The position numbers were made by a program, and so were the translations under genes. DNA of 63,240 bases, counting the filler, from Dimargaris cristalligena (Eukaryota), in the NCBI GenBank assembly GCA_003614675.1. It is 3 parts of 3 records of this genome, joined end to end, with 100 filler letters (N's around TTAATTAATTAA, not from the genome) between each part and the next. Parts side by side here need not be neighbours in the genome. Positions count along the whole stretch, not along the records: positions 42,268 to 63,240 come from ML002678.1; 2 more parts are not named here. One strand, given 5' to 3'. Positions 2,130-58,286 of the stretch are shown piece after piece (position 1 is the first letter of the stretch; the number at the start of each line of letters is the position of its first letter). Under the pieces are notes generated by a model. It had not been told where the DNA came from. It did not search any database and saw only the letters and a program-made list of their open reading frames with translations.

Positions 2130-2459
2130 TGGGGTTGTAATATTATCGTATCGCTAATAAGCACATCGTTTTGTTTTAGTGTAATCCATATAAAGTTGTA
2201 CAATTATAAACCTCTGCCCAAATCTTTTAGACCGTGAGCCCTTTTACTAGTACCTTAAAAATAGGGCTGCTGCTATGGTGTCATCATTTTCCAGATTAAA
2301 ATATGGCGCAGAATACTTCAGCCAAGCGGTGAGACCTTTGCCCCTGTACAGATAGAATTTATTCAAAATCAGGCGAGTAAAGAAGGTGCCAATGGGAGGG
2401 GGAAAAGCCAACAGGCTGTTTGTGAATGCAGGGACGCCATGGTGCTTAGCCTGTCCGTC

Positions 2460-4744: not shown

Positions 4745-5157
4745 GTCCAAAATAAAATAGTAGAAAGCAGGTAGGATGCTGCAAAAAAAGGGGGGGGCAA
4801 GGTGGAAATGCAAGGCGAGTTGTTGTCTAAAGCAAGGTAGGAGAATGCCAAGGAGGGCGGCGTGTTATATTTTGAAGAGTGAACCAAACCCTCAGGGGAA
4901 CTTGGCCGGGACCCCCAAAATTGGCCAAGCGGTATAGGCCTAACCCAAGTCAAAGTCCCTCCTTCCACCTCAGTTTCTCTCTATGCTCCATGCCCATGCT
5001 TCCTTTGCTCCATTCCATTTCTTGTTCCTTTGCTCCATTCTTTCCGTATCCGACCCATCTGTCCTCTATTCCGCAATCGCTGTGGACTGCCGTCTAGTGC
5101 CGGCGAACCTGTGACGGCCTCTTTGGCTCGCTCTACCCCCTCCCCGCCTATCACGCC

Positions 5158-26400: not shown

Positions 26401-29303
26401 TAGTTGACCATACAGTCCTCCAGGGCCTTGATCAAACGACGCTGGATGTAACCGGTTTCGGCGGTCTTGACGGCCGTATCAATCAGACCTTCACGACCAC
26501 CCATAGCGTGGAAAAAGAACTCCTGGGGGGTCAGCCCGCGCAAGTACGAATTTTCAACGAAGCCCTTGGATTCGGGGCCGTAGTCGTCCTTGGCGAAGTG
26601 AGGCAGGGAGCGGTTCTTGAACCCAAAGGGGATTCGTTTACCCTCCACGTTTTGCTGTCCAACACAGGCCGTCATCTGGGACACGTTAATGTAACTACCC
26701 TTGGACCCGGATACCACCATCTGTCGCACGTTGTTGTCTTCCTTCAGGTTCTTTTGGGCACTCTTACCGGCGTCATCACGGGCTCGGTTGAGTTCCACGT
26801 TGACCTTGCTTTCGAACGACTCGCGGATAGTCATACCGGCCAGACACTCGAGCTGGTTCTGCTGGGCCGTATTGATAATCTCGTTGACTCGGTTCTTGGC
26901 GTTATTGATGGTTGTGGTAATGTACTCCGCGGTTCGTGGATCCGCAATGGTATCGCCAATACCGATACTAAAGCCGTTGTGAAGGAACCAGTAGTTAATC
27001 ACGGTTTGGGTACCGTTAAAGAACATTTTACAAGTCTCGGACCCCCGCTCCAGCATAATGACGTGAATTAAGCCGCTCTCGGAAGCGCCCACCGTCTTTT
27101 TACACACGATACCGGCCAGAAGCACACCGTCCTCAATGATGACCTTGGTGTCACCGGGGGAAATGTCGGTTTTCTCTTCGTCCGGATGGGTGGAGTGAAA
27201 ACGCGTACAATTGATGCCGGACGGAATCACCATACTGAAAATCTGTTTACCCGACCATAGCGGCTTGGGCTTGAGAATGCAAGGCTGGGGGATCAGGCCA
27301 TCCCAGTCAGGCACCCACAACATAAGGTTCATGACCATGTCGTAGTCCACGAAGGTGTCACGTTTAGTGAACCGGCGAAGAGCGCATAGGGTGTCCTGGA
27401 CGATACCCATGACAGGCTTGTTGGCCTGCGGGGACACGATATTCTTGGGAACCATGCAAATCTCACGGATTTCAGCCCGGGTCTCCTCCGACTGAGGCAC
27501 GTGGAGATTCATTTCATCCCCGTCGAAATCGGCGTTATAGGGTGAGGTGACGGACAGGTTCAGACGGAAGGTGGAGTAGGGCATGACCCGGATACGGTGA
27601 CCCATCATCGACATTTTGTGCAAAGACGGCTGCCGGTTGAAAATGACCAAATCGCCCGAGATCAGGTGACGCTCGACTCGCCAGCCATATTGTAGGGGGA
27701 TTTCATTACCCAGTTTGTTATAGCGAAGATCGATACGTTCGCCATTTTCACGCACCACGTACTTGGCACCTGGGTGTTGATTAGGTCCGTTGCGCACACA
27801 TTCCTGCATTTGGGCGATATTGTACGGCGTGACCAACTCAGGGTAGGTCAAGTTACGGGCAATACTACGGGGTACACCCACTTCATCAATCGATAAGTTA
27901 GGATCACCCGTAATAACCGTACGGGCGGAGAAGTCCACCCGCTTACCCATTAAATTACCACGAAGCCGACCTTCCTTACCCTTGAGGCGGGCACGGATGG
28001 ATTTGAGGGGACGGCCGGATTTCTGGAGGGCCTGTGGGATCCCGGATGCGTCGTTATTCATGTACGTCGCAATATGGAACTGGAGCAGCTGCTCAAACTC
28101 TTCGACTACGTGCTGTGGGGCGCCCTCGGTCTCGCAGCCCTTGACGCGTTGGTTAGCCTTGAGAATATCGCTCAACTTATGGGTCAAATCGTCCTCACCG
28201 CGACTGGTGCCGTCCATCTGAATACTGGGGCGTACGGCGGGTGGGGGAACGGGGAGAACGGTGATAAGCATCCACTCGGGACGGGCCCAATCGGGTGAGA
28301 GACCCAGGTCGATCAGGTCGCGGTCGGAAATACGCTTAAGGATCTGGATGGCCATGGCGGCTGACACGTTCACCTTGCTTTCGGTGACAGTGCCATCCTC
28401 ATTTTTGGTTTTAAGCACCGTGGACAGCCGCAGGCCCTCCTTACGGATCACGGGATGGATCTGCCCGCAGGCTTCCGGGATGTCGAATGGGGCGGCGGGC
28501 TTAGCCATGGGGCCTTCGTCCTTCTTGTCGCCGTCGAGGTCGGTAATTGTGGCCTCGCAGCGCTTTTTGCCGTTGCAGAGCGCGTGGATATCCTTGAGCC
28601 GGCGCTTGGGGTCACGTAGTTTGCGGGCCCGTACGAATCGGATATCACCGGCATCAATCTTCAGACGGGAACAGTGAAAGCACACGCATTCGAGGATTTT
28701 TTTGATTTTGACGATAAACCCAATGTGGTAGACGGGACGGGCCAGTTCGACGTGGCCAAAATGACCGGGGCATTCGGTCATATTCTCGCTACAGGTCTGG
28801 CACTTAAAGTTACGGTCGATGGTCCCTAGGCGCGGATCCAGCAAACCGTTCACCTTTAGCTTTTGGGTACCTTCCTCCATAATCTCAGGGTGCTCGATCT
28901 GAACCACCGACATGGCTTTCTGAAGATGGGGAAACCGGCGGGGTCGTCAGCGAAAAGAGAAACATGAGGGGATCATAAAAAGCATAGGAAGTTGGGGAAA
29001 GAAAGGTACGGTCGCGGTTTTCCGTGACCATCAAATACGAAACGAAGTAGGGCAAAGTCGTTTAGCTAATGCTGGGGGTAGCAAGCCGGGGCCCATGTGG
29101 CCTTGTAATGCCATCGCACTCGCATGGAGGGATACATTGGCACCCATTCAGTACCACAGTGGTATCGATCATTGGGGGATATGATAAGATAGTTAGATTA
29201 AACCACAACTTACAATCTCATCCGGGGATAGAATACCGAACTGGATATAGTTTACTCTCCGGAGGGGTGCCGGAGAGTGAGCGAACTGATAGCTCATACT
29301 CAT
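23469..29303 (-). CDS. RPB1: RNA polymerase II largest subunit, 2 exons (29303-29214, 28919-23469)
   Basis: Exon 1 [37 protein letters not shown] active site; ECPGHFGH; C-terminal YSPTSPS heptads. Confidence 0.99.
23703..24206 (-). repeat. RPB1 CTD: 24 contiguous heptads (21-nt period)
   Basis: YSPTSPS array with variants [21 protein letters not shown] and YSATSPS, flanked by degenerate heptads. Confidence 0.95.
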
Positions 29304-32053: not shown

Positions 32054-32815
32054 CTACCGGTCCTTTACCTCCTCGGCCCAGTCTAGCACCACCTGAGGAT
32101 CCTCATTTTTTACTGAAAGCCGTTGGAACCGAATCTCATTGGGTATATGGTCAAACTTAAAGTCCTGCCCTTCGAACCCCAAATACTCGGCCGCCCCACT
32201 CGACGCGTCGGCATCCCCCTCGGACTCGTGCGATTCCAAAGCAGCACTACGAGTCGTACGCAGCCGATTCATTTCGGTTTCGAGCATTTTTTTTACCGTA
32301 GCAACGGGTGCCGCCGTGAACAGGTCCACCTTGTTACAGAGTACGAGAATGGGGGGAGGGCTCCGGGCTGCCCCGATGGCCGGGTGAACGAGCACGTCAT
32401 AGAGGGCCATGGCAACATCCCGTACATTGCGGGCCAACTGTGCACTATCCAGAACGAACACTAGCCCTCGGGCCGAAGCCAATTGATCCTGATACTGGGG
32501 TCGGAGTCGGAAGTGGCCCGGAATGTCAACGAAACGGACCGCGTTGGTTCCGGTATGGGCATTATCTGTAGAGCTACTCCGTGGTGAGGCGAACTGGTTG
32601 GATTCCATGGAGGTGTGGGTGGGCAGGATTCGACCAAACTCCAGCTTGGTCAACAGGGCGGTCTTGCCGGCGTCTGAAATCCCCAGGATGAGAAAATCAT
32701 TGCCTGATGAACGGGTCGAGATCCGCTGGCGGAGGACGAGGAATGCAATCGAAGCCACCAAGATGAGTAAGGCCAGAATAAGGCTATAGCCGCTGGGCAG
32801 AGAGGACCACTCCAT
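32054..32815 (-). CDS. SRPRB: Signal recognition particle receptor beta subunit
   Basis: N-terminal TM helix, GISDAGKT, PTHTSME, VDIPGHFRLR, LCNKVDL, LETEMNRLRTTRS, YLG..G..FKF. Confidence 0.92.
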   Translation of the reverse strand: MEWSSLPSGYSLILALLILVASIAFLVLRQRISTRSSGNDFLILGISDAGKTALLTKLEFGRILPTHTSMESNQFASPRSSSTDNAHTGTNAVRFVDIPGHFRLRPQYQDQLASARGLVFVLDSAQLARNVRDVAMALYDVLVHPAIGAARSPPPILVLCNKVDLFTAAPVATVKKMLETEMNRLRTTRSAALESHESEGDADASSGAAEYLGFEGQDFKFDHIPNEIRFQRLSVKNEDPQVVLDWAEEVKDR

Positions 32816-33082
32816 GTTGGTAGATGGCGTTGAAAAGAACTAATTACACTAATGAAGAACGTTTAGGAAAAGAGACGGGGTGAACCCAGGTGGAATTACA
32901 GGTTAGGCACAATAGGGAGAGAATGTGGGTGTATGGTGGAAGTTTAGCTGAGGGGTTCCCCATCAATTTTCTCCATACTATGGAGGCCACACAGTGGAAG
33001 TGAGAGTATCGACGCATCCTAGAAATGCGAGAGTTCAAAATAGCCAAGTATGGCGGTCATGTAGGGCAGACCTCCATCAATG

Positions 33083-43762: not shown

Positions 43763-45505
43763 CTAGTAGTAAAGCTTAATGAGTTCATCACTCACTCCCG
43801 AGGGTGTCAGGACCCCCAAATCCGTGAATAGAAGGGTGATAAACGACGGTGGCGTGTAATCCACCTCCGGGTTCGTCTTGGCCAGGTCCAAAGCAGCCCC
43901 ATCCAGCTCCATTGAGTTGGTATCGGACAAGGAAGGGGAAGGGGAAGCGACAGACTGTGGCGAATCGAACGATAGGATCTGGGCCGTATGCGTGGGTAAG
44001 TCAAACTGGTTAAGGGGGAACAACCGCACGAATTTGTAGCTTTCCGCCACAGCGTAGAAGGGTTTGCGGGCGGCTTTCGCGACGATGGAAATCTGGTAGG
44101 AGCCGATTTGGTTGATGAGACCGCCATTTTCCACCACCCCTTCGGCACCCACGAGAACAAAATCCACCTCTTCCATGATGTAACCAACGGCACAGTCGAG
44201 GACAACCGTACAGGGAATGCCGGCCTGGCGTAGTTGGGCGGCGGTACGGTAGCCGCTGTTGATGGGCCGGGCTTCGGTCACGTAAACGCGGAAGCGACGG
44301 TTGTGGGCGGCGGCCCGGAGGAGTAAGGTCATGACCACGCGGGAGTACGAATGTACCAAAATGGTCTGTGGTTAAGTGGACAAACCGGCAAGGAAGAGAA
44401 GGACAAATATACGAGCGATTAGTAGTTGGTATTGTATAACATAATCACACCGGCAATATAGGGTAATATAATATGTAGTGAACCAGGTCAGAAATTTTGC
44501 CGGGGGGCCCTTTGGTTTTCGTTGTTGCCCAGTTCTGACTGAATGGTCCGGTATATAGACTAGAATAGTCGGGTTGCTTACCGAGTCATCACGGATGAAT
44601 GGTTCACCTAATTCGGCGATGCTTTCGCGGCACGAAGCAGCTTTTTCGACAAACTTGGTGCCCCGGTTGATGAGGTTTTGGCGGCATTCCTCCACATTGG
44701 CATCAGCCATACGGGTCACCGCCTGCATGAACAAATCGCACCCAGCGGCCAGGGAAACGGAGTTCCGGGCGGATGACTTGAGGACCTGGGCGGCATCCCG
44801 GACCATTACTACAAATTCAGACATAGTTGAGGCTGTAGATTCAACAAGGTCGGGTGGGAATGGTAATGGGCAGTAGAAGAGAACAAGTCTAGTGGCGGAT
44901 TAGCAATTATTTGGATTGACGGAGAGGAATATTTAAGAGCCTCGGAGAGTGGCCTCGAAGACTACGCAATAGTCGGCCGGGGCGCGGTCGGTACACTTTG
45001 TGGTTCTAGATACACAGAAACAGGGGTATTGGGCATATTTGACCTACCTTGCGACTGACGAATGAACTCCACCAGGGACTGCACTGCGGCCACGGGCATA
45101 GACATGTCCTATTAATGTGGATGAAGGTCGGGGATATAAGCGGGCGAATCCACCGAAATACCGGTATGCATACAAAAGCTTTAGACTAGGTCCATTATAT
45201 CGATTGTACTCCCAGTAGTTACATTAGACTGCCAGTGGACGACAGCTGCTATTTGGAATTAGCCCCAAAAGACACTTACCGGGTCGGACTGGAGGAACTC
45301 CTGGTAACTTTGGTATATGCTGAATTCTATCGGGTAATGTCAGGGATGAGTACAACCAAATACGGGTGAGTGGACGACATCAGCGAGCTGGGACATGCGG
45401 AGAAGCGCATCGTCGAGGGAATTAAGCGTTATTGTACCCAGGCCAGGATAGCCAGCGTTGACGTCGCTGTTAGAAAAAAAAAAGCGGGATACCTTCGTGG
45501 GCCAT
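43763..45505 (-). CDS. GCN3: Translation initiation factor eIF2B alpha subunit, 5 exons (45505-45493, 45326-45280, 45108-45048, 44832-44582, 44365-43763)
   Basis: [82 protein letters not shown]; 13-nt first coding exon inferred. Confidence 0.93.
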
Positions 45506-45718
45506 GTCGAATATGTAATGCTATTGATTTGTCTCGGAGTATAAAGAAACGGTCTATTTCACAAAGTCCGTTAATGTTAAAATGAGCCTCGATAAAAAAA
45601 ACTAGAGAGGTAGTTATGAATAGGCACCAATGTTGGAAGTCGAGTTGTTTCGTTCGGGTCCCCCATTCGTTCTTCACTTCTGCTAAACTCTTCCAACCTA
45701 TTAGTAGCCTAGCTGTTA

Positions 45719-45789
45719 ATATGGGAGAGGTTCAGCTAGCCTGTACAACGAAAAATCCATTGGATGAGGCGAATACCGCAGGTTAAAAA
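45719..45789 (+). repeat. Dispersed repeat copy 3 (micro-ORF 45721-45786)
   Basis: atgggagaggttcag...acgaaaaatccattggatgaggcgaat...ggttaaaa; similarity ends just after the TAA. Confidence 0.75.
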
Positions 45790-46715
45790 TGGGTCATATT
45801 TGGCCCTGCTGCATGTTTATAATGGCATGTGTATGGGAAAATATATGGGAAATTTATTTTTAATCAGTAGTTTTTGCCTCATCCTACGGATTTCAAGTCA
45901 TGCGGCTTGGCTGGATCTCCGCCATATGTAGATAGATCTATATGCCACCCGAAACATTAAATAGACCATTCGGCCCAGAATGCTCGCTGGGCCCGCATTA
46001 AGATGGTATCCAAGGCCTGTGGTGGCGCGCTTTACTTGGCTATTGTATATGACCAATACGGGGAAGGGGATGGTGGCCTCTAAATCATTCTTTAGAGGGT
46101 ATACAATGTGTGTGTGGCGGGAGGGGGATATAAACAATGGGTGGGTGGTTTATTTGAGTAGGCAAGGGCTACTTCCAGGTGACTGGGGCTTTACAGCCTT
46201 CTAATGTGCCACAACCCCCACCGAGTCATCCCAGCTAACAGGGTGTGAAACGCTGCCTGCAAAAAATAAGGACTTTGTAATTAGGCTGCTCCAAGTTTGA
46301 GTGTCCAATGATACATCAACTTGATCCTACGTGGGTGCCACTGCATGTTATAGGTCTCTTTTTATCATTCGGTCAGACAAGCCAAACTGCCTGAGGCTGA
46401 TTCGCAGACCTAGATGTACGTAGAAAAATGTAAGCAATTCACTTAGATTCCTCGATTGCCACAATTTAGGAGATTCGTGAAGGTGTATCCCATAGACAGA
46501 TTGCTGGGTGAGAAACCGGATGGCTATTTTATTTTAGACCTTTGTATTCAGTAAGTGAGTAGGGCTAAATGAGAGATACAAAGGATAAACATCCGGTTAC
46601 GTAGGGGGGTTGAAGGTTCCCCCAATATTCAAAACCGTCGCCCAATTAAATGAGCTATTCCAGCTTAGCAGGCAATCCTATTTGGGGCAAGGAGGGCTAT
46701 GCGTGCGAAGGGTTA

Positions 46716-47482
46716 CTAAGAGGAGCAGTTTATCTTCCGGTAACGGTTAATATCACATTCAGTAATCTCCCAATAGGAAAAAATGATATCATTTCCTTTT
46801 ACAATAGTGATCTCTCCTTCTCGATTTTGTATAGTAAGGCTTTCGGCGTCTTCATCTATCCTTATGACCTGGCCTCTGAAAGATTCAGAGAGATCTTCGT
46901 GGTATGCATAATAAAGCCAGTCTGGATACCAGGGATAATATCAAGTTATAGGCCAACGGATAATCGGTGATATATATGTACATAGATTTCAATGATCAAA
47001 AATAGTATCAACACATCCACTTATCACTCGAAGTTCACCCAGCCTAGTTGAGTGCAATGCACAAAAAAAAGGTGGTGAAGACATCAGGGGAGGATTTGAG
47101 CAGGGTGATGCTACACTATTTCTGGAGTCCAATGCCAGTGTATAATCGTCGCGATATAGTAATAGTTTACTGCCTTACTATAGATAGGCACGATCTCCCA
47201 ATCGCCATCAGTGTTCTCAAGATACATTGTACTTCGTGATACGACCAAGAATATGGCTGATGAGTGGTGGGTGGCAGGGTGAAAGGGTGTACTATTGAAC
47301 TAATCCAGAAGATTCAGCTAAAGCGAGTCGATCGTACTTGTTTGTCGAAGTTATAGATGGTAAATACGAGGTTGGCAATTTACGTATTGTCGTGAGGCGG
47401 CGGTATGGGTTATATATAATATACCGAGACTTAATAACCAAGGCTAGTCTAGTCGTATAGTATAGTAAACAATGTACAGCAT
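46716..47482 (-). pseudogene. Possible heavily decayed protein gene
   Basis: Protein-like stretches MYLENTDGDWEIVPIY...HWTPEIV* and HEDLSESFRGQVIRIDEDAESLTIQNREGEITIVKGNDIIFSYW, with many stops and a frame change near a (TA)n tract at ~46970. Confidence 0.3.
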
Positions 47483-50351
47483 TAAGTGTTAAAGTATGAA
47501 TTGTTTATAATAAGCTCTGCCTTATAGGGATTACATCGGAGGTCTGTTCTTTGCTGGCTCCATTTTTCTAGCATGTACAAGGGGACGGATGTGATACTAA
47601 CATTTTTGTTGTCCGGTGATTGGACATATTACCACCAAGAAAAGTATTATACTTTGATATTCAAATATAAATATTCAATCAGGAGACATTGCCACTTGTG
47701 ATAAAATACCTGGCATTGATCAGGTTTGAAAAAGGCACAAACAGGTTAGAGCTATTTCAGTGATGAATACGCTTCTAACCGCAATTTATCATGGGGCATG
47801 TGGCCAGGACAAAGGGTAAACAATATTTGTCATGAATAGTAGTCAGTTGGTTGACAACATGGCAAGGGATACCACGGGGAAGTCTGGTGTACGGGGAGAC
47901 CCTGGTCCACCAAAATTTAGCCGCCTATATAGTAATTGATAAACTGGGCCGTGTACAGTTTATTGACAATGCAATGCGAGGAAATAACCAAGTATTGAAC
48001 CCCGTCTAGTTGTTAATTGTACCATGGTTTGGAAATACCAAGGCTAGACCCATAATTATGGACATAGGGGTTACTGCTCTTTAGGCTATCGCTCAATATA
48101 CAGGTGTGATTGCTTGTAAGCTTTGATCGGATGCCCCCTCGATTCCTATCAGAACCACTTGGATGCCAGTGTCCTCTGACCAGTACATCTGTTACTCCCT
48201 TCCGGCCAACCCATTGGCGACGTGTGTATGTGTATGAATATCCCCTTGGGGTTCACCCTGCTCGTTCCTTAGTGTATATCCCTCCCCCCGCTTGTCCTAT
48301 TGAAATGATAGGGTATTTGTTAGCCAAGTAACTAACAAATATTGAATAGAACAGAAAGGGAGTCATCAATATCCATGGAGGAGAGTAAGAACCGAAGTGT
48401 GGGTGGCCCCAGTCTCTGGTTCAGATATTTTAGTTATCCAATTGATAGTTTCCATTGGCGAGGTATAACGTATACTTTATATGGTAGGATTTACAGCTAT
48501 ATAACCGAGTGCATTCCAAGAGTGGCCTTGGCAATCGTAACAATCTAATAATTTATTTTATATCCACTCTATTATAAGTTGGCGTATTTTGGCGCTATTT
48601 ATTACCACTTCCCAGTAGCTGCTATCACCTGTCCCTGCCCCTACTATGAAAGCATTGGTCAAAAGTACTCCTGTTACTAGATCAAACAGAAACCTACATG
48701 TACAACCTCTTAGTTAATTAAGTGTGACACACCATTGCGACAATGTGCACCTCATCAATATATATTTTTATTTGATGTCAGTTCCTCTGAAAGACCAACT
48801 ACTACTAAACAATAATAGTATTGCCTGGAATGCCATATTAATGAACTGAATATTATTTTTCTGTTGTATGTAGGCTAACAATAATAGAAAGCCTACTGGT
48901 TGTGGCAGGGTATAGTCCTTGCAGATCCCAGCCACCCTACGCCTAGGAAGAGTAAACAGAGACTATTCAAAATAAGATTACAAGGGGAACTTTATGTATA
49001 ATTATAGTGATGGATACCAAAAAGGGCGATTAGTTGACTTGAGTAAAAAGGCCTTACTATACCTATTTAACAAAGGGATGTCCCTAAGAATGAACCTGAC
49101 TTTGTATACCCGATCATACTAAAGATATAGGTTTAGGTTAAACAAAGAGTATGCTGAAATCCGCTACTAGAAGACATGATATAGAAGTGGTAAATAATAA
49201 AGGTATATAATTGAATGAGGTAAACTGAGTAAATGAATGGGAATGCTCAAAAGATAATATCGCTTTGCGAGATTGAATTTATGTGCCTCACTGAGACTAG
49301 GTGACGGTTGCTCCCAAATCACAAAGAAGGGTTGGATTGTATCCCCCTGGTTATTAAGCACACTGCCAACACAGATTGATTATATATGTTTTTTCAAAGA
49401 GAAGCTCTGATACGTATATAGCCTGTAGGGCGGTGAAGGTACAGGGTCTTTGTGGGGAGCTCGGGGTTGACAAGGGCACGGAGGGCGGAAAGGTTTCCTG
49501 TCACCGATAACGTCGGGGATATATATATATTATGGGATAACATATATACTCGCGAAGGCACTAAAACACCAATCAAACTCGGGAAAACGCTGATACTCGG
49601 AAAGAACTCTGATAGTTCTGGTAACTCGGGAATACTCTGGAAACAGTCGAGATAATAATCGAAGCAGGAACTCGTTTTCCGGGAGATGCTCACATAGAAT
49701 AATCTAGTTTATTCATAAATTAAGAATACTGACGCGATTTATACAGCACGTGCAATCACAGAGCAAATTAGCAATGGTGACAAAATGTTAGATACGGCGG
49801 ATTTGAAGGCGAATTACCACAGCGCTAGGTATCATTAAACGGACGGAACCACCGGGATTCTGACGTCAATTCGGAAGACGGATAAACATAAACAAGCTGA
49901 TATAGACCAGACTGCGCCCACTTTTAATCTGGTTAGCAATGTATGTTCCGGATGGCAATAACTTCCAAGAAAATGAATAGTAGAAATGGTAAGTACGTTT
50001 CAACTTCACACAATTACTAGTCAGTAGACATATCTTTAACATCAATCATTAGTCTATGCTTGAATTCTAGCGCATAATTTTATATTTTTTTTATAATCGA
50101 AATGCAGTCAGCGACATTTAATTGGAAATCAGACCACCAGCCTTAAGCGCCTCTTCATTTACCACATTTTTTAACCACATTCATTGGTTAATTAACTATT
50201 GTTGCCACTCTGCCAGTACCACCGGGGTATTTATAGCACTATTTTTGGCTGCCTACTACTAAGTCATTTCACTTTCAATCATGTACCTCCTATCGCATTC
50301 TTAGCCGTGAACGTTTAACCCTACTATTAACTTTATACACTCAAATTGACC

Positions 50352-50714
50352 ATGGACGACCGAGACGCCAGACATGAGATCAATTATGTACTCGTCTCGA
50401 GCAAAAATAACAACAACGACAAAATTCGTGATAATCCCAGTATCCCGAGTAAAAGGGTCCCCAAATTCAAGTGTCCCACTTGTAATCGGAAATTCTATGA
50501 TCGCAATCCTTTCGTTGAACACCAAAGGGATTGCAAGGAATCTGCTTTATCGTATAATTGTTGTGTCTGTAAAGGTGCATTTGGCACTAAATAAGGAAGG
50601 GCCTGCCATGAGCATCATTGTATTAAATACTACTACTGTGATATATGTAAGAAATTTTGTGTATTACCAGATCACCAGAAGGCTCGCCTCAGATATTTTT
50701 TTGTGGAATATTAG
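50352..50714 (+). pseudogene. C2HC/C2H2 zinc-finger protein gene with a TAA inside finger 2
   Basis: Finger 1 CPTC-x12-HQRDC; finger 2 CCVC-KGAFGTK*GRAC-HEHHC keeps x12 spacing across TAA 50592-50594; third CDIC motif follows. Confidence 0.7.
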
Positions 50715-53528
50715 TGCCTTACTCGTCTTATTCTGGATTATTTTTTAACTCATGGTACTTTTTTACGGTTATCTCACGTATACATTGCGGGTTTAAAACC
50801 ATGTAACTGTCCACTGAGTATCTGCTGGTTTTATTCACCCATGCATTGTTTATTATTTTTGTGGCAGTCTGTCCACATTTATGTTTTTTTACAAACAAAT
50901 AGTTTAGGTCATATTGCATTATCCGTTGGTATTTACCTGTAATTTGATGGACTTGTTCTTCACTTTGCTGCTCATTGGATTAGGCAATCCCAGCGATATC
51001 TAACCATTGGAAATACACGATCGTTTGGTATCCTGATAAAAGCACCTTTATTTTGGTATGTAATATTTTTAAATCTATAAACCTGTGCTACAAGTCTGCA
51101 AACAATATAATTAGAAAGTAAATTGGTGGTTGTTTAATGCCCTGTTGGAATGATGCCTGCGCTGGACCAACCTTTATATAAGATTTGGAGTGGGCAAGGC
51201 AGTGTGCATTTGGTACCAAGTAGGTCACTTGGGTAGCGGACTTCCCATACTACAGACTACCAGAAACGGCAGATCTGTATGAATATAAAGCCCAGTAGTG
51301 TGAAATGGGCCGGCTAAGGTCTAATATATACGAGGGCTTCACGTGTTACTATGAAGGTATGGATCTTCCACCGCTCATTTCTCAGGTCGGTGTGTAAACA
51401 TTATCATATGAACTTGGGTGGCTAAGCAGCATTTTATCATATCTTTTTATGATTGCAAATTCGGTTAGTTGATTGCACTTCGTTGGGTTCTACATAAAAT
51501 AAATGAATATAATTACTTCACTATGAAAGTTCGAAGGGATGAATCAAGTGATTCACATATTCCTAAAACAACACGTTTAAAGATATATGAATTGGTTGCA
51601 TTTTTTAGGGAGAACAGCTGTGGAAAGCCAGCTGAATATTGTCACATATAGGCGATTGCAGCAACTATAGGCTAGAGTTTAAATGGTATGGTAAGTGTAA
51701 GATAAAATATAAGCCCTTTAGATGAAATAGACGAGAAATGTGTCGATTCTGACGGCGTATAGTCCAAGTTGAAGTGTAACGGCATTCAGATTCCCCTCCT
51801 TATGATTTCATTCGACTGTTTAATTTGAATCATATATTGGCTAATTAAGAGAAGCACGTACAGATTACGCAGGCCTAATATTTGTGGTCTACCAGGGGAA
51901 CCGTTTTATGGCGCGCTGTAAAGGGAACCCTCGTTATATAAAGTATATATATCAATGAGAGTTTGAGGACAGTTTGAGGACAGTGATCCGCTGAAATATT
52001 TCAGTTATGGTTACGGGATAATTAAATGGATGGCATATACTGTATCCTGCTCCATTTGAGATTAATAAGAGAACGCGTGTGTGTAATGTCATTAAACAGT
52101 CTACAATTAAACCCCCGCGGTTGGCCATCAAATAGACGATAAGTGCGATATATCCAAAAGTCTCTTAATCGTGCTCATGCTGCCGAATACCGAATGGTAA
52201 GTAAACTACAACGCATTTGTGAGGTAACTGTCTCGCTTAATTATTCAATCGACTAATTTGTAAGGCATGTAGGACGACTATAAAATGCCACTTTTTTGGA
52301 TTACAAAGCAAAAATTCGATATACGAACAACCGTTTTTGACCCCCTTTTTAGAACAAGCGCCCTCTTTAATACAGTCAATTATTTTACACCATTCAAAAC
52401 TCTAGCGAATTACTCGTTTATTAAAAAATACTGCTCACAGAAGTGCCATTCCCCCTATTTACTGGCCAACTTTGACCTTTCAATTGTAACTCGATCCATT
52501 ACAGACCTTATCGCTTATAGCCCAGCCCGCCTAACTATCTCAGTCAATCACGAGCCGATCCCGTTATTTCCTGGTCGTTCCTAAAAGGAGCCCACAGGCC
52601 CCACCGGCGTCTCAATACCTAACGCCAGTGTATTGGAATCGAGTGTCAATGCATATTTTAGGTGGTATTATGGGGAATTCGGCACCTATTGTATAAAAAC
52701 TATGGTCATTGCAGTATCCTGCACTGTCCATTATTTTTCTCTAACGCCTAGGTCGCGGGGTCCTTCTCGAACTCGGCCGCCGTACACCAATCCCTGATAT
52801 TATTAGGCTTGTCGGGTCAGTCCAAGCTATTATACTACCGACCACCCGCCCCTACCACTCCCCCGGCCCATCACCCCTTCTACTTCGGGGCACATTTATG
52901 AATTCGGGACAGTATTCCAAGTTCAGCCACATTACTACCTCTGGCAGTCGAAGAGGGGCATTTCTTTTATCCGCCTGCCTAAAATTAGCGCAGGGCAACA
53001 AGGGAGAGTTGTCTTCTGTACATACCACTTGCGGTACTTTTCTCAGTGGCCATAGCTTGTCCCATATGGTGGTTACAGCGGGCTAGTCCGTGTTACACTA
53101 GCTAGCATGGTCACCATTCTCTGTCCTACCGACTATTGGTACTACGCCGCTATTTTATGCCGTTAACATGGACAAAACCCACCCAAGTGTAGCGACAGCA
53201 TGCCTATCATGAATTTCAGCACCGCCTATTGTGTTTCCGGAGGCATAGAGCGACTATTAATCAAATCCATCGGTTTCATGGTATTCTGGCCGGCCTCCCC
53301 AATTGCCGAAACTAGGCGATGGTGGCAGTATACGGCCCTGACCCGACTATACCCGCCCCCCTAGTTACCGATTATTATAAATACAGCAAGGCCAAGCCTC
53401 TCTTCCCCTCTCATTATCCCACACAACCACCCCTTCTATACTCTTATTGGTTTCTCAGCCTATTCTTCAGCAACTCACACCATCACGACCAACAACAACA
53501 GCATAAGCCACTGCCCAACACTCTCATC

Positions 53529-53759
53529 ATGGCCCGCTTCCTGTCCCCCATCGCCCTGTTTGCCCTCGTCTTTGCCGTTTCGGCCGTTACTGCCCAGAAC
53601 CCTGCCGAAGCCCAGGAGACCCTTCACCGCCGTGGCTTTTTCTCTCATCATAAGAAGGCAATCTTCGGCACCACGGTTGGTGGCATTACCGCAGGTGGTG
53701 TAGGTGCCCTGGCTGGTGGCCTGATTGGTAACCACTATGACAAGAAGAGCCGTAAATAA
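53529..53759 (+). CDS. 76-aa secreted precursor: signal peptide + pro-peptide ending LHRR + 41-aa cationic glycine-zipper peptide
   Basis: TATAAA 53376-53381; MARFLSPIALFALVFAVSAVTA|QNPAEAQETLHRR|GFFSHHKKAIFGTTVGGITAGGVGALAGGLIGNHYDKKSRK. Confidence 0.85.
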   Translation: MARFLSPIALFALVFAVSAVTAQNPAEAQETLHRRGFFSHHKKAIFGTTVGGITAGGVGALAGGLIGNHYDKKSRK

Positions 53760-56594
53760 ACGAGCTCGATCCCCCTGTCTCCGTAGCAGCCGATAGAGCG
53801 ATGTGCTTGATGATGGATATTGGCGGCCCGCTTGGTGGGCGTCAGTTGGTGTGCCATATTTCAAACAAAGTAGGCTCAAAGTCGTCAACAGTATATATCT
53901 ACCCCACCATTACTTATGCTATTATGATGCATACTAGATGCAGGCATAGTCCCATTTTCACTTGTTTATAACCATGTTCGCCCATTTTCTTTAGTTGGCT
54001 AGAGAAGAGTGTCCGATTTGTATATTCCCAATAAATTATAGAACCGATGGAACTCTTAGACACCCAATTATGACAATTAGCTGATTATAATGGGCCATCT
54101 GGATATGCCATGGTGTTGCCCAATTCACTATCTAGCTGTAAAGATCATGGTTTGTATATTACTACGCAGGCCTCACCATTGCAGAATTGGTAATGGGTTA
54201 TTTTGTGTGTGTGGTCAACCAAGATTAGCCGGTGTCCCGAGTATGGGGCTATTAAACTAAAAATATGTAAGTGGTGGGATGGGAGAGGGGTATTTAAAAA
54301 GAACGAGATGGTTAGGTCCCAAATGAGACACATGAAGTTGCAATCGGCCTACCCTGTGCAGTGAAAGTCACTGGCCCTGGAAGTAAAGGTTCGGGGTGAC
54401 GTTGGAACCCCGTGTTAGACACACCCCAAGGGTTCTGCCGACTCCGACTAGTAAGTCGACATCCAATCCGATGGATTGGATTATCAGCGGAGTGATAGAT
54501 AAATGGTCTTTAACTGTGGAGAGTAAAAGGGTTGTTTTTGGTTTTTGCGGATTTCTTCCAATTCAACTCTCCTTCATTTATTCAATATTCGCCCGTAGTT
54601 CTCAACAAGCCCAGTCTGGTATATGGCTATGTAATCCTGTCTCCCATGGCTCTAGTATATTTGACCAACCCGAATCATACTATCGTTAATAGGGCTAGAT
54701 CCCAAAGTGGTTCCCCCATTCCTGCACCATAGGAATTGGCACAGTCGTTTGGGAGGTTGTGAAAGCCGGCGGCTCATGCAAAGCCTGGGAATCGGAGGCT
54801 GAGGGCTGGATTTGTTACACGGTTAAAAGCCCAGCAGAATAGGGTATACCGATTTTTCGCCTGCGCGGATAATAAGCCGACGGTGTTCATTGTTGGAGCT
54901 TCTTCCGGCTCTTCATGATGGTGTCTTCGGCGGGACTATTTGAGTGTATAAACTAGGTTTGGGGCCATTATGGCCTTCCAAACGAGATTTAATGGTCGAT
55001 TTTGAAAGCCGTAGAACTAAGCGAAGGTAAAACACACCGTGGTAGCTGGAATAGTTTAGGGTGGGAAACGCGGAGGTCATCGGCCTGCAGCTTACATGCG
55101 TATACCACCCATGGGGAACCACCTTATTTCTCCCCACATTCGAATTGCTTATACCAACTCGTTGGTGAGTGGCTTGGGTCTGTTGTAGAGATATGCTGGC
55201 CAATCTATTGCGAGGTGTATTTTTATATCACTCTGCTTTACAGATCCTTGTAGACCCCTCGAACTGAGCGCACTCGGAGAACGAAGTATTTGAAAACCAT
55301 GATTTTGGTGATGGAAAACGTATGTTTATTAGAGAACGCGATATGCTAACCAATTATACAAAGGCATGGATAGAAATTGAAGAGGATCTGCCTTTGGTGT
55401 TAAGTGGGCAACTTGCGTCGCTGTTCTTACAAGCCAGATCGTCCCAGAAACATGTGTGTCATTCGAGTATTGGTCAGGTTGCCATCTAATCGGACTAGTT
55501 AAGATTAAACCTCCCTGGTATAATAGTGGGATGACTAGGTGGGCACTGTAGCCTCTGGCTCTGAATGGTGAAGCGAGGTTCCGGGGGAAGAGGCACCTAA
55601 ATATATGAATAAATCCAGGGTTTTTCATTACGATTTGCCAAAGCGGTGAATAGGAAACCCTCGGGCTTGCCCCCCGCGAACAACGGGGATTGGCATCGGA
55701 TGTGCTAACAGTTTCGATCTAGTACGGCCGAGATCATGGCGAATGCTCAGTAGTATAGCTAATTTATGAAATACCCCAGGTTTGGAAAGTGACGATCACC
55801 GATCCTTCACACGCATTTGAAGGGCTTTTTTGTGACTTTATAATACGCTTAAAAGGGGAAGGGTTAGGCCAGGGCGACTCAAAGCGAAGGACTCGGCGTG
55901 GCATTAGCCAACCTGGTTTATTATGGCGGGGATGTCGCACCATACGCCGTGTAGATCATTGGCAACCCTAATCAATGTGACCTGCCCTTTTCCGCACCCA
56001 ATAACATATGGCGCTGGCGTGGTTTGCGACGACCTTTCGGAATTTCTTGAGGGCTAAAATAGGATCAAAATAGCGTAAGTAAACCAAATCAACTTTAGAC
56101 GGATCAAATTATGCGCTTTTTTTACCACTATAATACTGCAAGATCCATGTTGCCGAAATTAGGTCAGGGCTAATATATTATGGAAAGAGATCCTCATGTT
56201 CAATGTATACATTTACTATACTTCGCCACGCCCCCCCTCCACTGTAATGGACATCCGAAATAGCCTACTCACTAATCTGTAATTGGTGCTTTTGGTTGCA
56301 CTGACTATGCCCAGAATCCTCTCTATTTGGCCTCTGTGTCCTCCAATGGCCCTGCGGAGGAGGTCCTTTTGACCCTCTCCCCTCCCCTCTTCCTTTGCTA
56401 CTTTAACTTATTCAAAGCATTTACAGTCTCCTTCTACCTCTACCTCTGCCCCTGTTTCAATTCGCATCCTTTAGTTAGCTTGTCCATAATCTTAGTACTT
56501 TGTTCTGCGTGGTTTCATTACCCCTTCCTCTCCCTCTGTCACTAATATATATATATATATATTTCCTTTACAAACACACCTTCATGAGCCCGAC

Positions 56595-58286
56595 ATGGAA
56601 CCATTAACGACTCTACTCCTGTTCTGCGGGGCCATGTTTCTCGGTTCCCTCGGTGTGGGTCTCATCCCCCTCTCCCTCTCCCTCTGCGGCTCCCGCCTGC
56701 ACATGTTTAGTGTTTTTGGCTCGGGACTACTCCTCGGCACGGCCCTTTTGGTCATTATTCCTGAGGGAGTGGACTCCCTGTATAAGGCAATGGAGCCCGC
56801 CACCAAGCCACTTTTGGGGTCGGATGAGCATTCCGACGTGCATGCCTCGGAGTCGTTACTAAGTGCCCACCAGTGGATCGGACTTTCGCTTACCCTTGGG
56901 TTTGCCTGGATGTTCGCTCTCGATACGTTAATCTCTATTTTGACCAACGCCCCCCACCACCTCCACCATGGGCATACTCACGGCCCTTGTGACTCCAGTG
57001 GCGAGTGCAACGAGGATACTGACCTACTGGAACGCCACCGGACCAGCAGTGAGCAGCAGCACTCTGGTCCCAACCATAGCCATAGTCACAGCCACAGTCA
57101 CGCCCAGCCTCAGATCACCGAAATCTCACTCACCACCACCCTTTCCAGCTCAGCTGAGGGCAGTATAGCCTCCACCATGGAGGATCACTCCAGCAGTCCA
57201 ACGGGTTCCCGGATTCAAGGACGAAGTGACGGTACACAGAACCTTTCTACCACAGTTGGCTCGGGCTCAATGTCGGTGGCCCGTTCCAGAGTAACCCACT
57301 CGTACCACGGCAGTCGACCGGGGTCTCCCGACCCCCTGGCCGCCCACCAGGAAATTGATATTCTGCCCTCCTCCGAGGATACAACGGCAGCTGAAGCCGA
57401 AACGGCTCTCTTTGCAGCCCCCCCGTCCGGTTCAGCCTCTAGTAAGCAACGCCGCTCCCCCACGACAACACCAACCACGACGACGACGACAAATTCTCAC
57501 CGCCATACCCACGGCACATTCACCTCGCTGCTCTCACCCGCCACGATCGGCATGTTGATTCATGCCGCTGCTGACGGTATGGCTCTGGGTTCGGCCACCG
57601 CCACGGCTTCCGCGGAGGCCGATTCCTCGTCCAGCGGACACGACCATGGTCACGTTCACGTCCACGGGGGCGGCGGATCGTCCTCAGGGATGTCCCTTAT
57701 TATTTTCTTTGCCATTTTACTTCACAAGGCGCCCGAAGCCTTCGGCCTATGCACCCAGTTACTCCAGGAGGGCCAGTCCCGGCCGGCCATTAAACGGACC
57801 CTGGTCGTTTTCGCCCTGGCCGCTCCACTCATGGCCCTGGCCACCTATGCTGCGACGGGACTAGTTCGGCTCGGGGCCGCCTCGACGGGACCGACTGACG
57901 ATGGAAGTGCCGCGGAATCAACCATCCTGATGCGGAAGTTCACTGCCCTGCTGCTCCTCTTCTCCGCGGGCACCTTCCTTTACGTCGCCGCCGTGCACTC
58001 GCTCCCGGAAACCATGTGCAATGACCTGCCGGAGGAGGATACTTGCGATACGCACCACCACCACCACCACCATGCGGCACACCCGAACCCGGCTGGGCAT
58101 CCCCATTCCCGGATGATATCCACACGCTCATCCATAGACCTGGGAGGTGTGGAATCCGATCTCAACCCGGCTCCTACATCCGGGCTACATTTTACTCAAT
58201 TCCGCCGCCATCTTTTGAAAAGGCTGGGGGTTTTACTAGTAGGAATGTTCCTACCCCTGTTCATTTCCCTAGGCCACTCCCATTAA
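56595..58286 (+). CDS. ATX2: ZIP family Zn/Mn transporter, ZIP9/ATX2-like, with long His-rich loops
   Basis: GSGLLLGTAL..IIPEG, IGMLIHAAADG.ALG, AILLHKAPEAFGL, LLFSAGTFLYVA, C-terminal GHSH. Confidence 0.88.
   Translation: MEPLTTLLLFCGAMFLGSLGVGLIPLSLSLCGSRLHMFSVFGSGLLLGTALLVIIPEGVDSLYKAMEPATKPLLGSDEHSDVHASESLLSAHQWIGLSLTLGFAWMFALDTLISILTNAPHHLHHGHTHGPCDSSGECNEDTDLLERHRTSSEQQHSGPNHSHSHSHSHAQPQITEISLTTTLSSSAEGSIASTMEDHSSSPTGSRIQGRSDGTQNLSTTVGSGSMSVARSRVTHSYHGSRPGSPDPLAAHQEIDILPSSEDTTAAEAETALFAAPPSGSASSKQRRSPTTTPTTTTTTNSHRHTHGTFTSLLSPATIGMLIHAAADGMALGSATATASAEADSSSSGHDHGHVHVHGGGGSSSGMSLIIFFAILLHKAPEAFGLCTQLLQEGQSRPAIKRTLVVFALAAPLMALATYAATGLVRLGAASTGPTDDGSAAESTILMRKFTALLLLFSAGTFLYVAAVHSLPETMCNDLPEEDTCDTHHHHHHHAAHPNPAGHPHSRMISTRSSIDLGGVESDLNPAPTSGLHFTQFRRHLLKRLGVLLVGMFLPLFISLGHSH

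What the first reader, a model, noticed from the sequence alone, without database searches (positions are those of the whole stretch)
53529..53759. Kex2-processed cationic glycine-zipper peptide: candidate secreted pore-forming toxin or antimicrobial
Seen: 22-aa signal, 13-aa pro-piece ending LHRR, then a 41-aa peptide with an aromatic/His/Lys N-terminus (GFFSHHKK), stacked GxxxG motifs and a basic tail (GLIGNHYDKKSRK), behind a TATA box in a gene-poor region. Known: Kex2 cleaves after KR/RR; glycine zippers drive membrane oligomerisation in class II bacteriocins/microcins and bacterial Gly-zipper domains; His/Phe-rich N-termini occur in piscidin-type peptides. Inference: an undescribed fungal peptide effector family, relevant if the organism is a mycoparasite.
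Basis: partly seen in the sequence, partly recalled or inferred. Interest (0 to 1): 0.7.

Follow-up and report, generated by a model that had tools for sequence, protein, structure and literature searches.

The report
Secreted glycine-zipper peptide gene, mycoparasite-specific
This is a real small gene, found only in the fungus-parasitising fungus Dimargaris cristalligena, that probably encodes an exported, protease-trimmed glycine-rich peptide whose suspected membrane activity has not been tested.

Summary
Window 53529-53759 (+) is a 76-aa ORF with a signal-like N-terminus, a 13-aa piece ending L-H-R-R, and a 41-aa Cys-free Gly/Ala-rich segment with basic ends. A TATAAATA box lies 146 nt upstream. 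The ORF is the only coding-looking ORF between the flanking eIF2B and ZIP genes (about 11.6 kb).

The gene looks real. Its codon usage beats all 118 ORFs of at least 60 aa in the window. Three further family members exist, all in Dimargaris cristalligena, a haustorial mycoparasite. No credible relative was found outside that species.

L-x-R-R fits the extended Kex2 motif and is kept in 3 of 4 members; the fourth, a partial record, has HHH. Gly/Ala show period-4 spacing above shuffles.

The segment is not amphipathic, and the GFFSHHKK N-terminus is unique to this copy, so the piscidin analogy fails. Pfam Gly-zipper_Omp scores just under threshold (23.6 against 25 bits). E. coli OsmB shows no real similarity.

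My best reading is a secreted pro-peptide whose product self-associates and acts on membranes. Secretion, cleavage, expression and activity are all untested. Rivals are a small membrane protein and a protective or wall-associated peptide. It is an orphan candidate effector with a testable mechanism, of moderate interest.

The parts
53376..53383 (+). TATA-like box TATAAATA, 146 nt upstream of the start codon
   Evidence: The motif occurs 11 times in the window against 3.58 expected, and 0 of 100 shuffles reach 11. No ATG lies between it and 53529. Promoter function is inferred.
53529..53759 (+). Coding sequence of the 76-aa prepropeptide (P0001), stop codon included
   Evidence: Best codon-usage score of 118 ORFs. 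Three family members in the same species. Identical 76 aa in a second assembly's model, P0005.
53529..53594 (+). Residues 1-22: signal-peptide-like segment (MAR, 17-residue hydrophobic core, V-T-A before Q23)
   Evidence: Read from the sequence. Kyte-Doolittle 19-residue maximum is 2.21. T21 and A22 are invariant in 4 of 4 members. A helix at 7-23 appears in a low-confidence model. No SignalP was available, so cleavage is inferred.
53595..53633 (+). Residues 23-35: pro-piece QNPAEAQETLHRR; L-H-R-R at 53622-53633 is the candidate kexin site
   Evidence: This is the most conserved block of the family: 73% mean pairwise identity. L-x-R-R is kept in 3 of 4 members; the fourth has F-H-H-H. The motif definition comes from PMC8528282. 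Cleavage is inferred.
53634..53756 (+). Residues 36-76: predicted mature 41-mer with net charge +5, 3 His, 10 Gly and no Cys
   Evidence: One long helix at 40-74 in an AlphaFold2 model of low confidence (mean pLDDT 60.6).
53658..53732 (+). Residues 44-68: Gly/Ala-rich period-4 core (AIFGTTVGGITAGGVGALAGGLIGN)
   Evidence: Pfam Gly-zipper_Omp match over residues 47-73, E 4.8e-5, 23.6 bits against a cut-off of 25. Period-4 placement of G+A is reached by 9 of 5000 shuffles. The summed insertion energy on a recalled Hessa scale is +3.75, which is not TM-like.
53755..53760 (+). AATAAA overlapping the stop codon (possible poly(A) signal)
   Evidence: Function is inferred.

Best explanation
This is a genuine, species-restricted gene of the mycoparasite Dimargaris cristalligena that encodes a prepropeptide. 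An N-terminal signal peptide (probably cut after T21-A22) takes it into the ER. A 13-residue pro-piece ends in L-H-R-R, a kexin (Kex2-type) site, and would be removed in the late Golgi. That releases a Cys-free peptide of about 41 residues. The peptide's centre is a Gly/Ala period-4 'glycine zipper' helix, and its ends are rich in His and Lys. The core is too Gly-rich and polar to be retained as a transmembrane anchor, so the peptide would be secreted. Outside the cell it would self-associate through the small-residue face and bind or perturb membranes, either at the host interface or against competitors, with the basic ends docking to anionic lipids. Shown here: the gene is real, the family exists, the motifs are present and partly conserved, and the period-4 pattern is real. 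Inferred: ER entry, kexin cleavage, secretion, self-association, membrane activity and any role in parasitism.
For: Coding: best codon score of 118 ORFs. The upstream extension and the other frames score poorly. Family: 4 members, all from D. cristalligena, and conservation begins exactly at M1. Paralogue DNA is visible in an independent DNA run at single-copy-like depth (records 5 and 6). Prepro layout: the signal block (68%) and pro block (73%) are at least as conserved as the mature N-terminus (52%). L-x-R-R is kept in 3 of 4 members and matches the P4/P2/P1 preferences of Kex2. Not a membrane anchor: summed insertion energies for the best 19-residue window are +3.75, +5.11 and +6.37 in three members, against +0.84 to +1.63 for their signal segments, and a Lys sits mid-core in the three other members. 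Glycine zipper: near-threshold Pfam Gly-zipper_Omp match and period-4 Gly/Ala placement above shuffles in 4 of 4 members. Precedents for the mechanism: glycine-zipper CdzC/CdzD aggregate on the cell surface and kill on contact (PMC5380434, abstract and passages). Kex2-released candidalysin self-assembles into pores (PMC12153327, passages).
Against: There is no evidence of expression. The second-assembly model P0005 adds a 26-aa N-terminal extension through a 1.27-kb intron with canonical GTAAGT and CAG ends. If that model is correct, the hydrophobic segment is internal. One of the 4 members (a partial record) has HHH instead of RR and has lost several Gly. The peptide is not amphipathic (muH at most 0.26), unlike candidalysin and most lytic peptides. 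The Pfam match is below the gathering score, and the other members score only 10-12 bits or nothing. The structure model has low confidence (pLDDT 60.6). No adjacent gene could serve as an immunity or partner protein. The variation seen in a second sample (5 substitutions and 1 deletion in 2301 bases, none in the 231-base ORF; about 0.6 expected by proportion) is too sparse to show selection.
Confidence: 0.4

Rival explanations
1. It is a small type I membrane protein. After the signal peptide is removed, the Gly-zipper core spans the ER, Golgi or plasma membrane as a single oligomerising helix. About 20 residues face the lumen or outside, and the basic tail (N-H-Y-D-K-K-S-R-K) faces the cytosol. 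It would act as a small regulatory or structural membrane subunit rather than a secreted peptide.
For: The core is a 24-25 residue apolar stretch flanked by basic residues, modelled as one long helix at 40-74. D-K-K followed by exactly three residues is kept in the 3 complete members, which could be a cytosolic sorting tail. Glycine zippers are classic transmembrane packing motifs (Kim et al. 2005, as cited in PMC5380434).
Against: Summed insertion energy is positive (+3.75 here; +5.1 and +6.4 in two other members), and the other three members carry Lys mid-core. The Lys residues sit at positions -4 and -5, not at the -3 position of canonical KKXX/KXKXX retrieval signals (motif recalled, not tested). 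The Kyte-Doolittle 19-residue mean is only 1.0-1.4. A conserved L-x-R-R just before the core would be exposed to kexin in the Golgi lumen anyway.
Confidence: 0.2
2. It is a secreted but non-toxic glycine-zipper peptide. It stays on the parasite's own wall or spore surface, or protects it under stress. That would make it a functional analogue of small bacterial glycine-zipper envelope lipoproteins such as OsmB, or of His/Lys-flanked Gly/Ala modules in ASR-type stress proteins.
For: The overall layout is the same as E. coli OsmB: 72 aa against 76 aa, a signal, a Gly-rich zipper and a short G-x-I-G-H-x-x-x-K end. The best Pfam match is to the envelope-protein family Gly-zipper_Omp. A Mucorales giant protein, P0002, carries 26 modules of the form 'HHH, Gly/Ala zipper, EHHKEKK' that resemble the mature peptide. 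One such module weakly matches the ABA/WDS stress-protein family (E 0.0063, 17.4 bits against a cut-off of 25).
Against: There is no demonstrable homology to OsmB: BLASTP gives no alignment at E up to 100, and hhalign aligns 12 columns at probability 5.3%. The peptide has no Cys or lipobox. P0001 has no ABA_WDS hit at E up to 10. Each P0002 module scores only 7.7-12.1 bits, so the whole-protein E of 1.5e-42 is 26 weak matches added up.
Confidence: 0.2
3. It is not a functional gene: a chance ORF or a decaying remnant in a non-coding region.
For: It lies alone in about 11.6 kb without other coding signal. No RNA evidence could be obtained. One family member looks degraded: partial, with RR changed to HHH and Gly changed to Ser or Arg.
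Against: It has the best codon usage of 118 ORFs. Four members keep the frame, length, start and end. A TATA box and a clean leader precede the start. The 76 aa are identical in a second assembly, and there is no difference in a third data set.
Confidence: 0.04

Closest known systems
Kex2-processed pro-domain (K2PP) fungal effectors (Outram et al. 2021, PMC8528282; passages read)
   Same: The layout is a signal peptide, then a short N-terminal pro-piece rich in disorder-promoting residues in the first half of the protein, ending in RR with Leu at P4, then a single mature product. The family belongs to a parasitic fungus.
   Different: K2PP effectors are folded proteins of plant pathogens such as SnTox3, ToxA and SIX1/4/6. 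Here the product is a 41-residue Cys-free Gly-rich peptide of a mycoparasite from Zoopagomycota. Processing has not been shown, and one member lacks the site.
Candidalysin / Ece1p of Candida (PMC12153327; passages read)
   Same: It is a ribosomal, Cys-free, helical fungal peptide released by kexin from a secreted precursor. It has an apolar body containing Gly and a Lys-rich C-terminal end, and it self-assembles before attacking membranes.
   Different: Candidalysin is amphipathic and is one of eight peptides in a 271-aa KR-separated polyprotein. This peptide has no amphipathic moment and a single core behind a single RR site. No sequence similarity appeared in any search.
CdzC/CdzD glycine-zipper contact-dependent bacteriocins of Caulobacter (PMC5380434; abstract and passages read)
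   Same: These are small exported proteins dominated by Gly and small hydrophobic residues in extended GxxxG repeats, which are proposed to drive both aggregation and membrane insertion. They are used against neighbouring cells on contact, which fits a haustorial parasite.
   Different: They are bacterial, exported by a type I system, work as a two-protein toxin and have an adjacent immunity gene. Here the peptide has a eukaryotic ER signal, no partner or immunity candidate nearby and no detectable homology.
Pfam PF13488 Gly-zipper_Omp and PF05433 glycine zipper 2TM domain (e.g. E. coli OsmB)
   Same: Size, the signal-plus-zipper layout, and the C-terminal G-G-x-I-G-H motif are shared. The best profile match of P0001 is PF13488. 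UniRef names the second-assembly model a 'Glycine zipper 2TM domain-containing protein'.
   Different: The score is below the gathering threshold (23.6 against 25 bits), and the other members score 10-12 bits or nothing. PF05433, which OsmB hits at 1e-7, is not hit at E up to 10. There is no lipobox Cys and no pairwise similarity to OsmB. The protein is eukaryotic.

Membership tests
Pfam PF13488 Gly-zipper_Omp | Whole-protein score at or above the curated gathering score (25 bits) | tested here: not met
   P0001 scores 23.6 bits, E 4.8e-5. P0006 scores 12.0 bits, P0007 scores 10.3 bits, and P0003 has no hit at E up to 1.
Pfam PF05433 glycine zipper 2TM domain (OsmB, 17-kDa antigen) | Profile match; in bacteria a lipoprotein signal with a lipobox Cys | tested here: not met
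   No PF05433 hit at E up to 10 for any of the 3 members scanned. OsmB itself hits at 1e-7. The 76 aa contain no Cys. BLASTP against OsmB gives no alignment, and hhalign probability is 5.3%.
Glycine zipper motif (generic, Kim et al. 2005 sense) | Small residues (Gly/Ala) repeated with period 4 along one helix face | tested here: met
   The period-4 resultant of G+A in residues 44-68 is 0.49, reached by 9 of 5000 shuffles. For Gly alone it is reached by 142 of 5000, and for the other members by 74-210 of 5000. The plain GxxxG count (4) is not above shuffles, with 3617 of 20000 reaching it.
K2PP effectors (Kex2-processed pro-domain) | Signal peptide followed, in the first half of the protein, by a pro-piece ending in KR, RR or LxxR | tested here: met
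   QNPAEAQETLHRR occupies residues 23-35 of 76. L-x-R-R is present in 3 of 4 members. The motif definition is from PMC8528282. The signal peptide was judged by eye and by hydropathy only.
K2PP effectors (Kex2-processed pro-domain) | The pro-piece is absent from the secreted form, or Kex2 removes it in vitro | not testable with these tools
   This needs peptidomics or a cleavage assay. The presence of a Kex2 gene in this genome could not be checked because no whole genome is held.
Kex2-processed repeat proteins (KEPs) | Several repeated peptide cores, each flanked by kexin sites | tested here: not met
   There is one core and one RR site in 76 aa. The search for longer forms found only a 239-aa model whose last 76 aa are one family unit behind an unrelated N-terminal part.
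Candidalysin family | An amphipathic alpha-helical peptide flanked by KR sites inside an Ece1-like polyprotein | tested here: not met
   muH is at most 0.26 in all 24 windows of 18 residues. The precursor has a single core. No sequence relatives were found outside D. cristalligena.
Cdz-type glycine-zipper bacteriocins | A two-protein toxin with an adjacent exporter and immunity gene | tested here: not met
   No other ORF with coding signal lies within 8.6 kb upstream or 2.7 kb downstream. None of the 18 flanking ORFs scanned reaches a Pfam gathering score.
   There is no amphipathic moment. Residues 36-46 are only 21% identical to the other three members.
ABA/WDS (ASR) stress proteins, PF02496 | Profile match | tested here: not met
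   P0001 and the other members have no hit at E up to 10. Only a module of the unrelated giant protein P0002 matches, weakly (E 0.0063, 17.4 bits against a cut-off of 25).

The most novel reading that the evidence does not exclude
Dimargaris has evolved its own family of ribosomal, kexin-released glycine-zipper peptides. These would assemble at the haustorial interface and permeabilise or remodel the membrane of its Mucorales host. That would be the first peptide toxin or effector known from Zoopagomycota, and a eukaryotic counterpart of bacterial contact-dependent glycine-zipper toxins (Cdz). The divergent window copy would then be a variant with a more hydrophobic core and a His-rich N-terminus that could respond to pH or metal ions.
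Probability: 0.15. Interest if true: 0.75.

Novelty: new variant of a known kind. Interest (0 to 1): 0.42.

Why it matters
In the papers read here, the analyses of obligate fungal parasites of fungi centre on enzymes and secondary metabolites, and no peptide effector of these parasites came up (passages of PMC6784888, PMC9866270, PMC9391592 and PMC13188720). This family is small, species-restricted and sequence-simple. A 41-residue Cys-free peptide is easy to synthesise, and the hypothesis is specific: self-association through a glycine face plus membrane binding through basic ends. If it is active, it would extend kexin-released peptide toxins beyond Candida to an early-diverging fungal lineage. 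It would also give a handle on how a haustorial mycoparasite handles host membranes. If it is inert or membrane-retained, it is one more orphan small secreted protein among the tens of thousands predicted in zygomycete genomes (47,494 in 132 genomes; PMC9391592 passage).

Tried and rejected
- **Whole genome:** none is held for this window. Family-member loci, Kex2 presence and dN/dS could therefore not be examined.
- **Expression:** no RNA holder was listed among 5 runs from 2 studies.
- **Reads laid on the region:** all runs were contigs. The second-study run differs at 5 bases plus 1 deletion in 2301 bases, with none in the ORF. That is too few to be informative.
- **ESM Atlas:** no usable hit for the whole protein or for residues 36-76.
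- **PDB profile search:** 3 hits at E up to 10, the best at 0.18. An amyloid-beta fragment appears at E 0.83. None is significant.
- **NCBIfam:** 3 hits at E 0.015-0.033, with 14-15 bits against cut-offs of 152-175. Rejected.
- **Other Pfam matches:** FAD_binding_4, MauE and DUF6861 are all far below their cut-offs. Rejected.
- **P0004 (737 aa):** a repetitive protein matched through low-complexity GG stretches. Rejected as a relative.
- **P0002 (6093 aa, Hesseltinella):** the E-value of 1.5e-42 is the sum of 26 near-identical modules of 7.7-12.1 bits each. I treat it as a resemblance, not as homology.
- **AlphaFold2 on the 3-sequence alignment:** mean pLDDT 60.6 and pTM 0.29. This was too weak for a fold search, so none was run.
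- **The 102-aa model P0005, with its 1.27-kb intron:** considered and judged less likely, for three reasons. Family conservation starts at M1. The upstream in-frame part has poor codon usage. The intron would contain the TATA box. It is not excluded.
- **Flanking DNA:** no repeats of at least 25 bp, no Rfam family and no transposon domains in the 18 ORFs scanned, which I picked from the 38 listed.
- **Earlier findings of this scan:** nothing relevant.
- **Literature:** 0 papers hold both 'glycine zipper' and 'Kex2'. None of the 10 listed papers from the four-term search held 'glycine zipper'. The 2026 mycoparasite-effector paper mentions none of Dimargaris, Kex2 or glycine.
- **Not opened:** supplementary tables of PMC6784888 and PMC9391592 (secretome and SSP lists). 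They may list this protein.

Full report
**What is there.** Window 53529-53759 (+) is an ATG-to-TAA ORF of 76 codons. A TATAAATA box lies at 53376-53383. No ATG lies between it and the start codon, and the start has an A at -3. AATAAA overlaps the stop codon. TATAAATA is enriched in this window overall: 11 sites against 3.58 expected, and 0 of 100 shuffles reach 11. The single site therefore gains weight mainly from its position.

**Is it a gene?**
- I built a codon-preference table from four housekeeping genes of the window: RPB1, a ZIP transporter, SRP-receptor beta and eIF2B.
- The ORF scores a mean ln RSCU of 0.211. None of the 118 ATG-to-stop ORFs of at least 60 aa on either strand scores higher.
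- The in-frame upstream extension (53319-53528) scores -0.092, the other two frames score -0.19 and -0.15, and the overlapping antisense ORF scores -0.074.
- The identical 76 residues occur in a second assembly's gene model, P0005.
- A DNA run from a second study shows 5 substitutions and 1 deletion in 2301 bases, none of them in the ORF. About 0.6 would be expected in 231 bases, so this says nothing about selection.
- No RNA run was listed, so expression is unknown.

**Organism and setting.**
- Public sources name the cluster members as proteins of Dimargaris cristalligena.
- This fungus is described as an obligate, biotrophic mycoparasite of Kickxellomycotina that is grown with a Mucorales-type host (PMC6784888, passages; PMC9866270, passages).
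- The gene sits alone. Between the eIF2B gene (ending at 44899) and the ZIP transporter (starting near 56500) there are 135 stop-to-stop ORFs of at least 40 aa. Only three have a positive codon score: this ORF, the ZIP ORF and one 40-aa ORF at 45961-46080.
- I scanned 18 of the 38 flanking ORFs of at least 70 aa against Pfam. None reached a gathering score.
- The flanks contain no repeats of at least 25 bp and no Rfam family.

**Relatives.**
- A word-indexed search of 5.8 billion proteins found only the query itself (1 hit among 2 candidates).
- A full HMMER pass over 1.84 billion representatives gave 4 proteins at E up to 0.001:
  - the query itself;
  - P0003 (76 aa, 55% identical, E 9.5e-15);
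  - P0002, a 6093-aa Hesseltinella protein;
  - P0004, a repetitive 737-aa protein matched through GG-rich low complexity, which I reject.
- Profile searches added P0006, a 74-aa partial record (3 hits among 422 candidates).
- Among longer proteins they added P0007, a 239-aa model (1 hit among 7996 candidates scored). Its last 76 residues are a family unit behind an unrelated N-terminal part.
- P0003, P0006 and P0007 all carry locus tags of one D. cristalligena assembly. The family therefore has at least four members in one species and none detected elsewhere.
- Short contigs in the second-study run carry paralogue DNA at a depth like that of single-copy sequence (records 5 and 6).

**Family anatomy.**
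- Conservation starts exactly at M1. What lies upstream in P0007 and in the window is unrelated. Together with the poor upstream codon usage, this favours the 76-aa model over the 102-aa model P0005.
- P0005 joins a 7-codon exon at 52177-52196 across a 1.27-kb intron with GTAAGT and CAG ends. That model is not excluded.
- Mean pairwise identity by block:

| Block | Residues | Mean pairwise identity |
|---|---|---|
| Signal | 1-22 | 68% |
| Pro-piece | 23-35 | 73% |
| Mature N-terminus | 36-46 | 52% |
| Zipper | 47-68 | 69% |
| Tail | 69-76 | 65% |

- T21-A22, N-P-A-E-x-Q-x-T and D-K-K are invariant in all four members.
- The window copy is the outlier in the mature part. It is 21% identical to the others over residues 36-46 and 50% identical in the zipper. 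GFFSHHKK is therefore a private feature of this copy.

**Processing.**
- The n/h/c layout and the conserved small residues at -3 and -1 fit a cleavable signal. No predictor was available, so this is inference.
- L-H-R-R matches the extended Kex2 preference of P1 Arg, P2 Lys or Arg, and P4 Leu or another aliphatic residue (PMC8528282, passages).
- L-x-R-R is kept in 3 of 4 members. The partial member P0006 has F-H-H-H and has also lost several glycines. It may be decaying, or cleavage may not be essential.
- I could not check whether this genome holds a Kex2 gene.

**The mature segment.**
- It has 41 residues, net charge +5, 3 His, 10 Gly and no Cys.
- The count of GxxxG pairs (4) is no more than composition gives: 3617 of 20000 shuffles reach it.
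- The angular test for period 4 is clearly above shuffles. For Gly+Ala, 9 of 5000 shuffles reach it in this copy and 114-380 of 5000 in the others. For Gly alone the range is 74-210 of 5000. The 'zipper' is therefore real as a pattern.
- It is not amphipathic: muH is at most 0.26 in all 24 windows. This sets it apart from piscidins and from candidalysin.
- A rough sum on a recalled Hessa scale gives +3.75 for the best 19-residue window of the core, and +5.11 and +6.37 in two other members. The signal segments give +0.84 to +1.63.
- The three other members have a Lys in mid-core. I therefore think the core is not a stable membrane anchor and that the peptide is released.
- AlphaFold2 on the three-sequence alignment gives helices at 7-23 and 40-74, but at mean pLDDT 60.6 and pTM 0.29. 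That is too weak to use further.

**Comparison with known families.**
- The best profile match is Pfam Gly-zipper_Omp (E 4.8e-5, 23.6 bits), which is below the 25-bit gathering score. The other members score 10-12 bits or nothing.
- E. coli OsmB, fetched from K-12, has a strikingly similar layout and hits PF05433 at 1e-7. It shows no BLASTP alignment with P0001, and hhalign gives a 12-column match at 5.3% probability. This is resemblance, not membership.
- The Hesseltinella giant protein carries 26 near-identical modules of the form 'HEHHH, Gly/Ala zipper, EHHKEKK'. Each scores only 7.7-12.1 bits against P0001. One module weakly matches ABA/WDS (E 0.0063), whereas P0001 does not.
- PDB, NCBIfam and the ESM Atlas gave nothing significant.
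- In architecture the gene is closest to K2PP effectors. In likely mode of action it is closest to kexin-released candidalysin and to the glycine-zipper Cdz toxins. It fails defining features of each family (see the membership table).

**Verdict.**
The gene is real, the family is undescribed and restricted to a mycoparasite, and the kexin-type site and glycine zipper are present.
- Secretion, cleavage and membrane or antimicrobial activity remain inference. The piscidin analogy is wrong.
- I put about 0.4 on the full chain: secreted, kexin-trimmed, self-associating and membrane-active. I put about 0.2 each on a small type I membrane protein and on a non-toxic wall-associated or protective peptide, and about 0.04 on a non-functional ORF.
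- No paper in the searched library holds both 'glycine zipper' and 'Kex2'. The zygomycete and mycoparasite secretome papers I searched by passage do not mention such a family. I did not open their supplements.

Noticed in passing
window 52177-52196 and 53467: A second assembly's 102-aa gene model (P0005) starts with a 7-codon exon at 52177-52196, followed by GTAAGT, and joins at a CAG acceptor just before 53467. That implies a 1.27-kb intron that would contain the TATA box. It is probably an ab initio artefact, but the splice signals are canonical.
   Followed up: partly
protein P0002 (Hesseltinella vesiculosa, 6093 aa), residues about 2000-5200: This giant protein is named by UniRef as ricin B lectin domain-containing. 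It holds 26 near-identical modules of the form 'KKPEHEHHHVSAGEVVGGIAAAGAAVIAGGLALEHHKEKKEAE'. One module weakly matches the plant ABA/WDS (ASR) stress-protein family (E 0.0063, below the cut-off). It comes from the order Mucorales, to which hosts of Dimargaris belong. The resemblance to the window peptide is weak for each module.
   Followed up: partly
window 44900-56500: About 11.6 kb, with GC falling to 0.36-0.42 in places, has no coding signal apart from the 76-aa gene, no repeats of at least 25 bp, no Rfam hit and no transposon domains. This is unusual if the genome is as compact as the 20-30 Mb that PMC9866270 estimates for this order.
   Followed up: partly
window 50331-50594 (+): An 87-aa stop-to-stop ORF in the AT-rich stretch has a weak C2H2 zinc-finger-like match (E 0.009, 16.9 bits against a cut-off of 25.2). 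It may be a relic of a degraded gene.
   Followed up: no
window, 11 sites (e.g. 11695, 17019, 30600, 33763, 36623, 40589, 43562, 47666, 53376): TATAAATA occurs 11 times against 3.58 expected, and 0 of 100 shuffles reach 11. Nine of the 11 sites are on the + strand. This suggests that the octamer is a commonly used promoter element in this fungus.
   Followed up: no
protein P0007 (239 aa, D. cristalligena): This gene model fuses a 163-aa N-terminal part, which has no Pfam match and looks coiled-coil-like by eye, to a complete 76-aa family unit that starts with its own Met. It is probably two genes merged by annotation.
   Followed up: partly
window 23469-28946 (-): An uninterrupted 1825-aa RPB1 ORF with the C-terminal heptad repeats, which is useful as a taxonomic marker for the contig. 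Other housekeeping genes in the window are SRP-receptor beta (32054-32839, -), eIF2B family (43763-44899, -) and a His-rich ZIP transporter (56496-58286, +).
   Followed up: no
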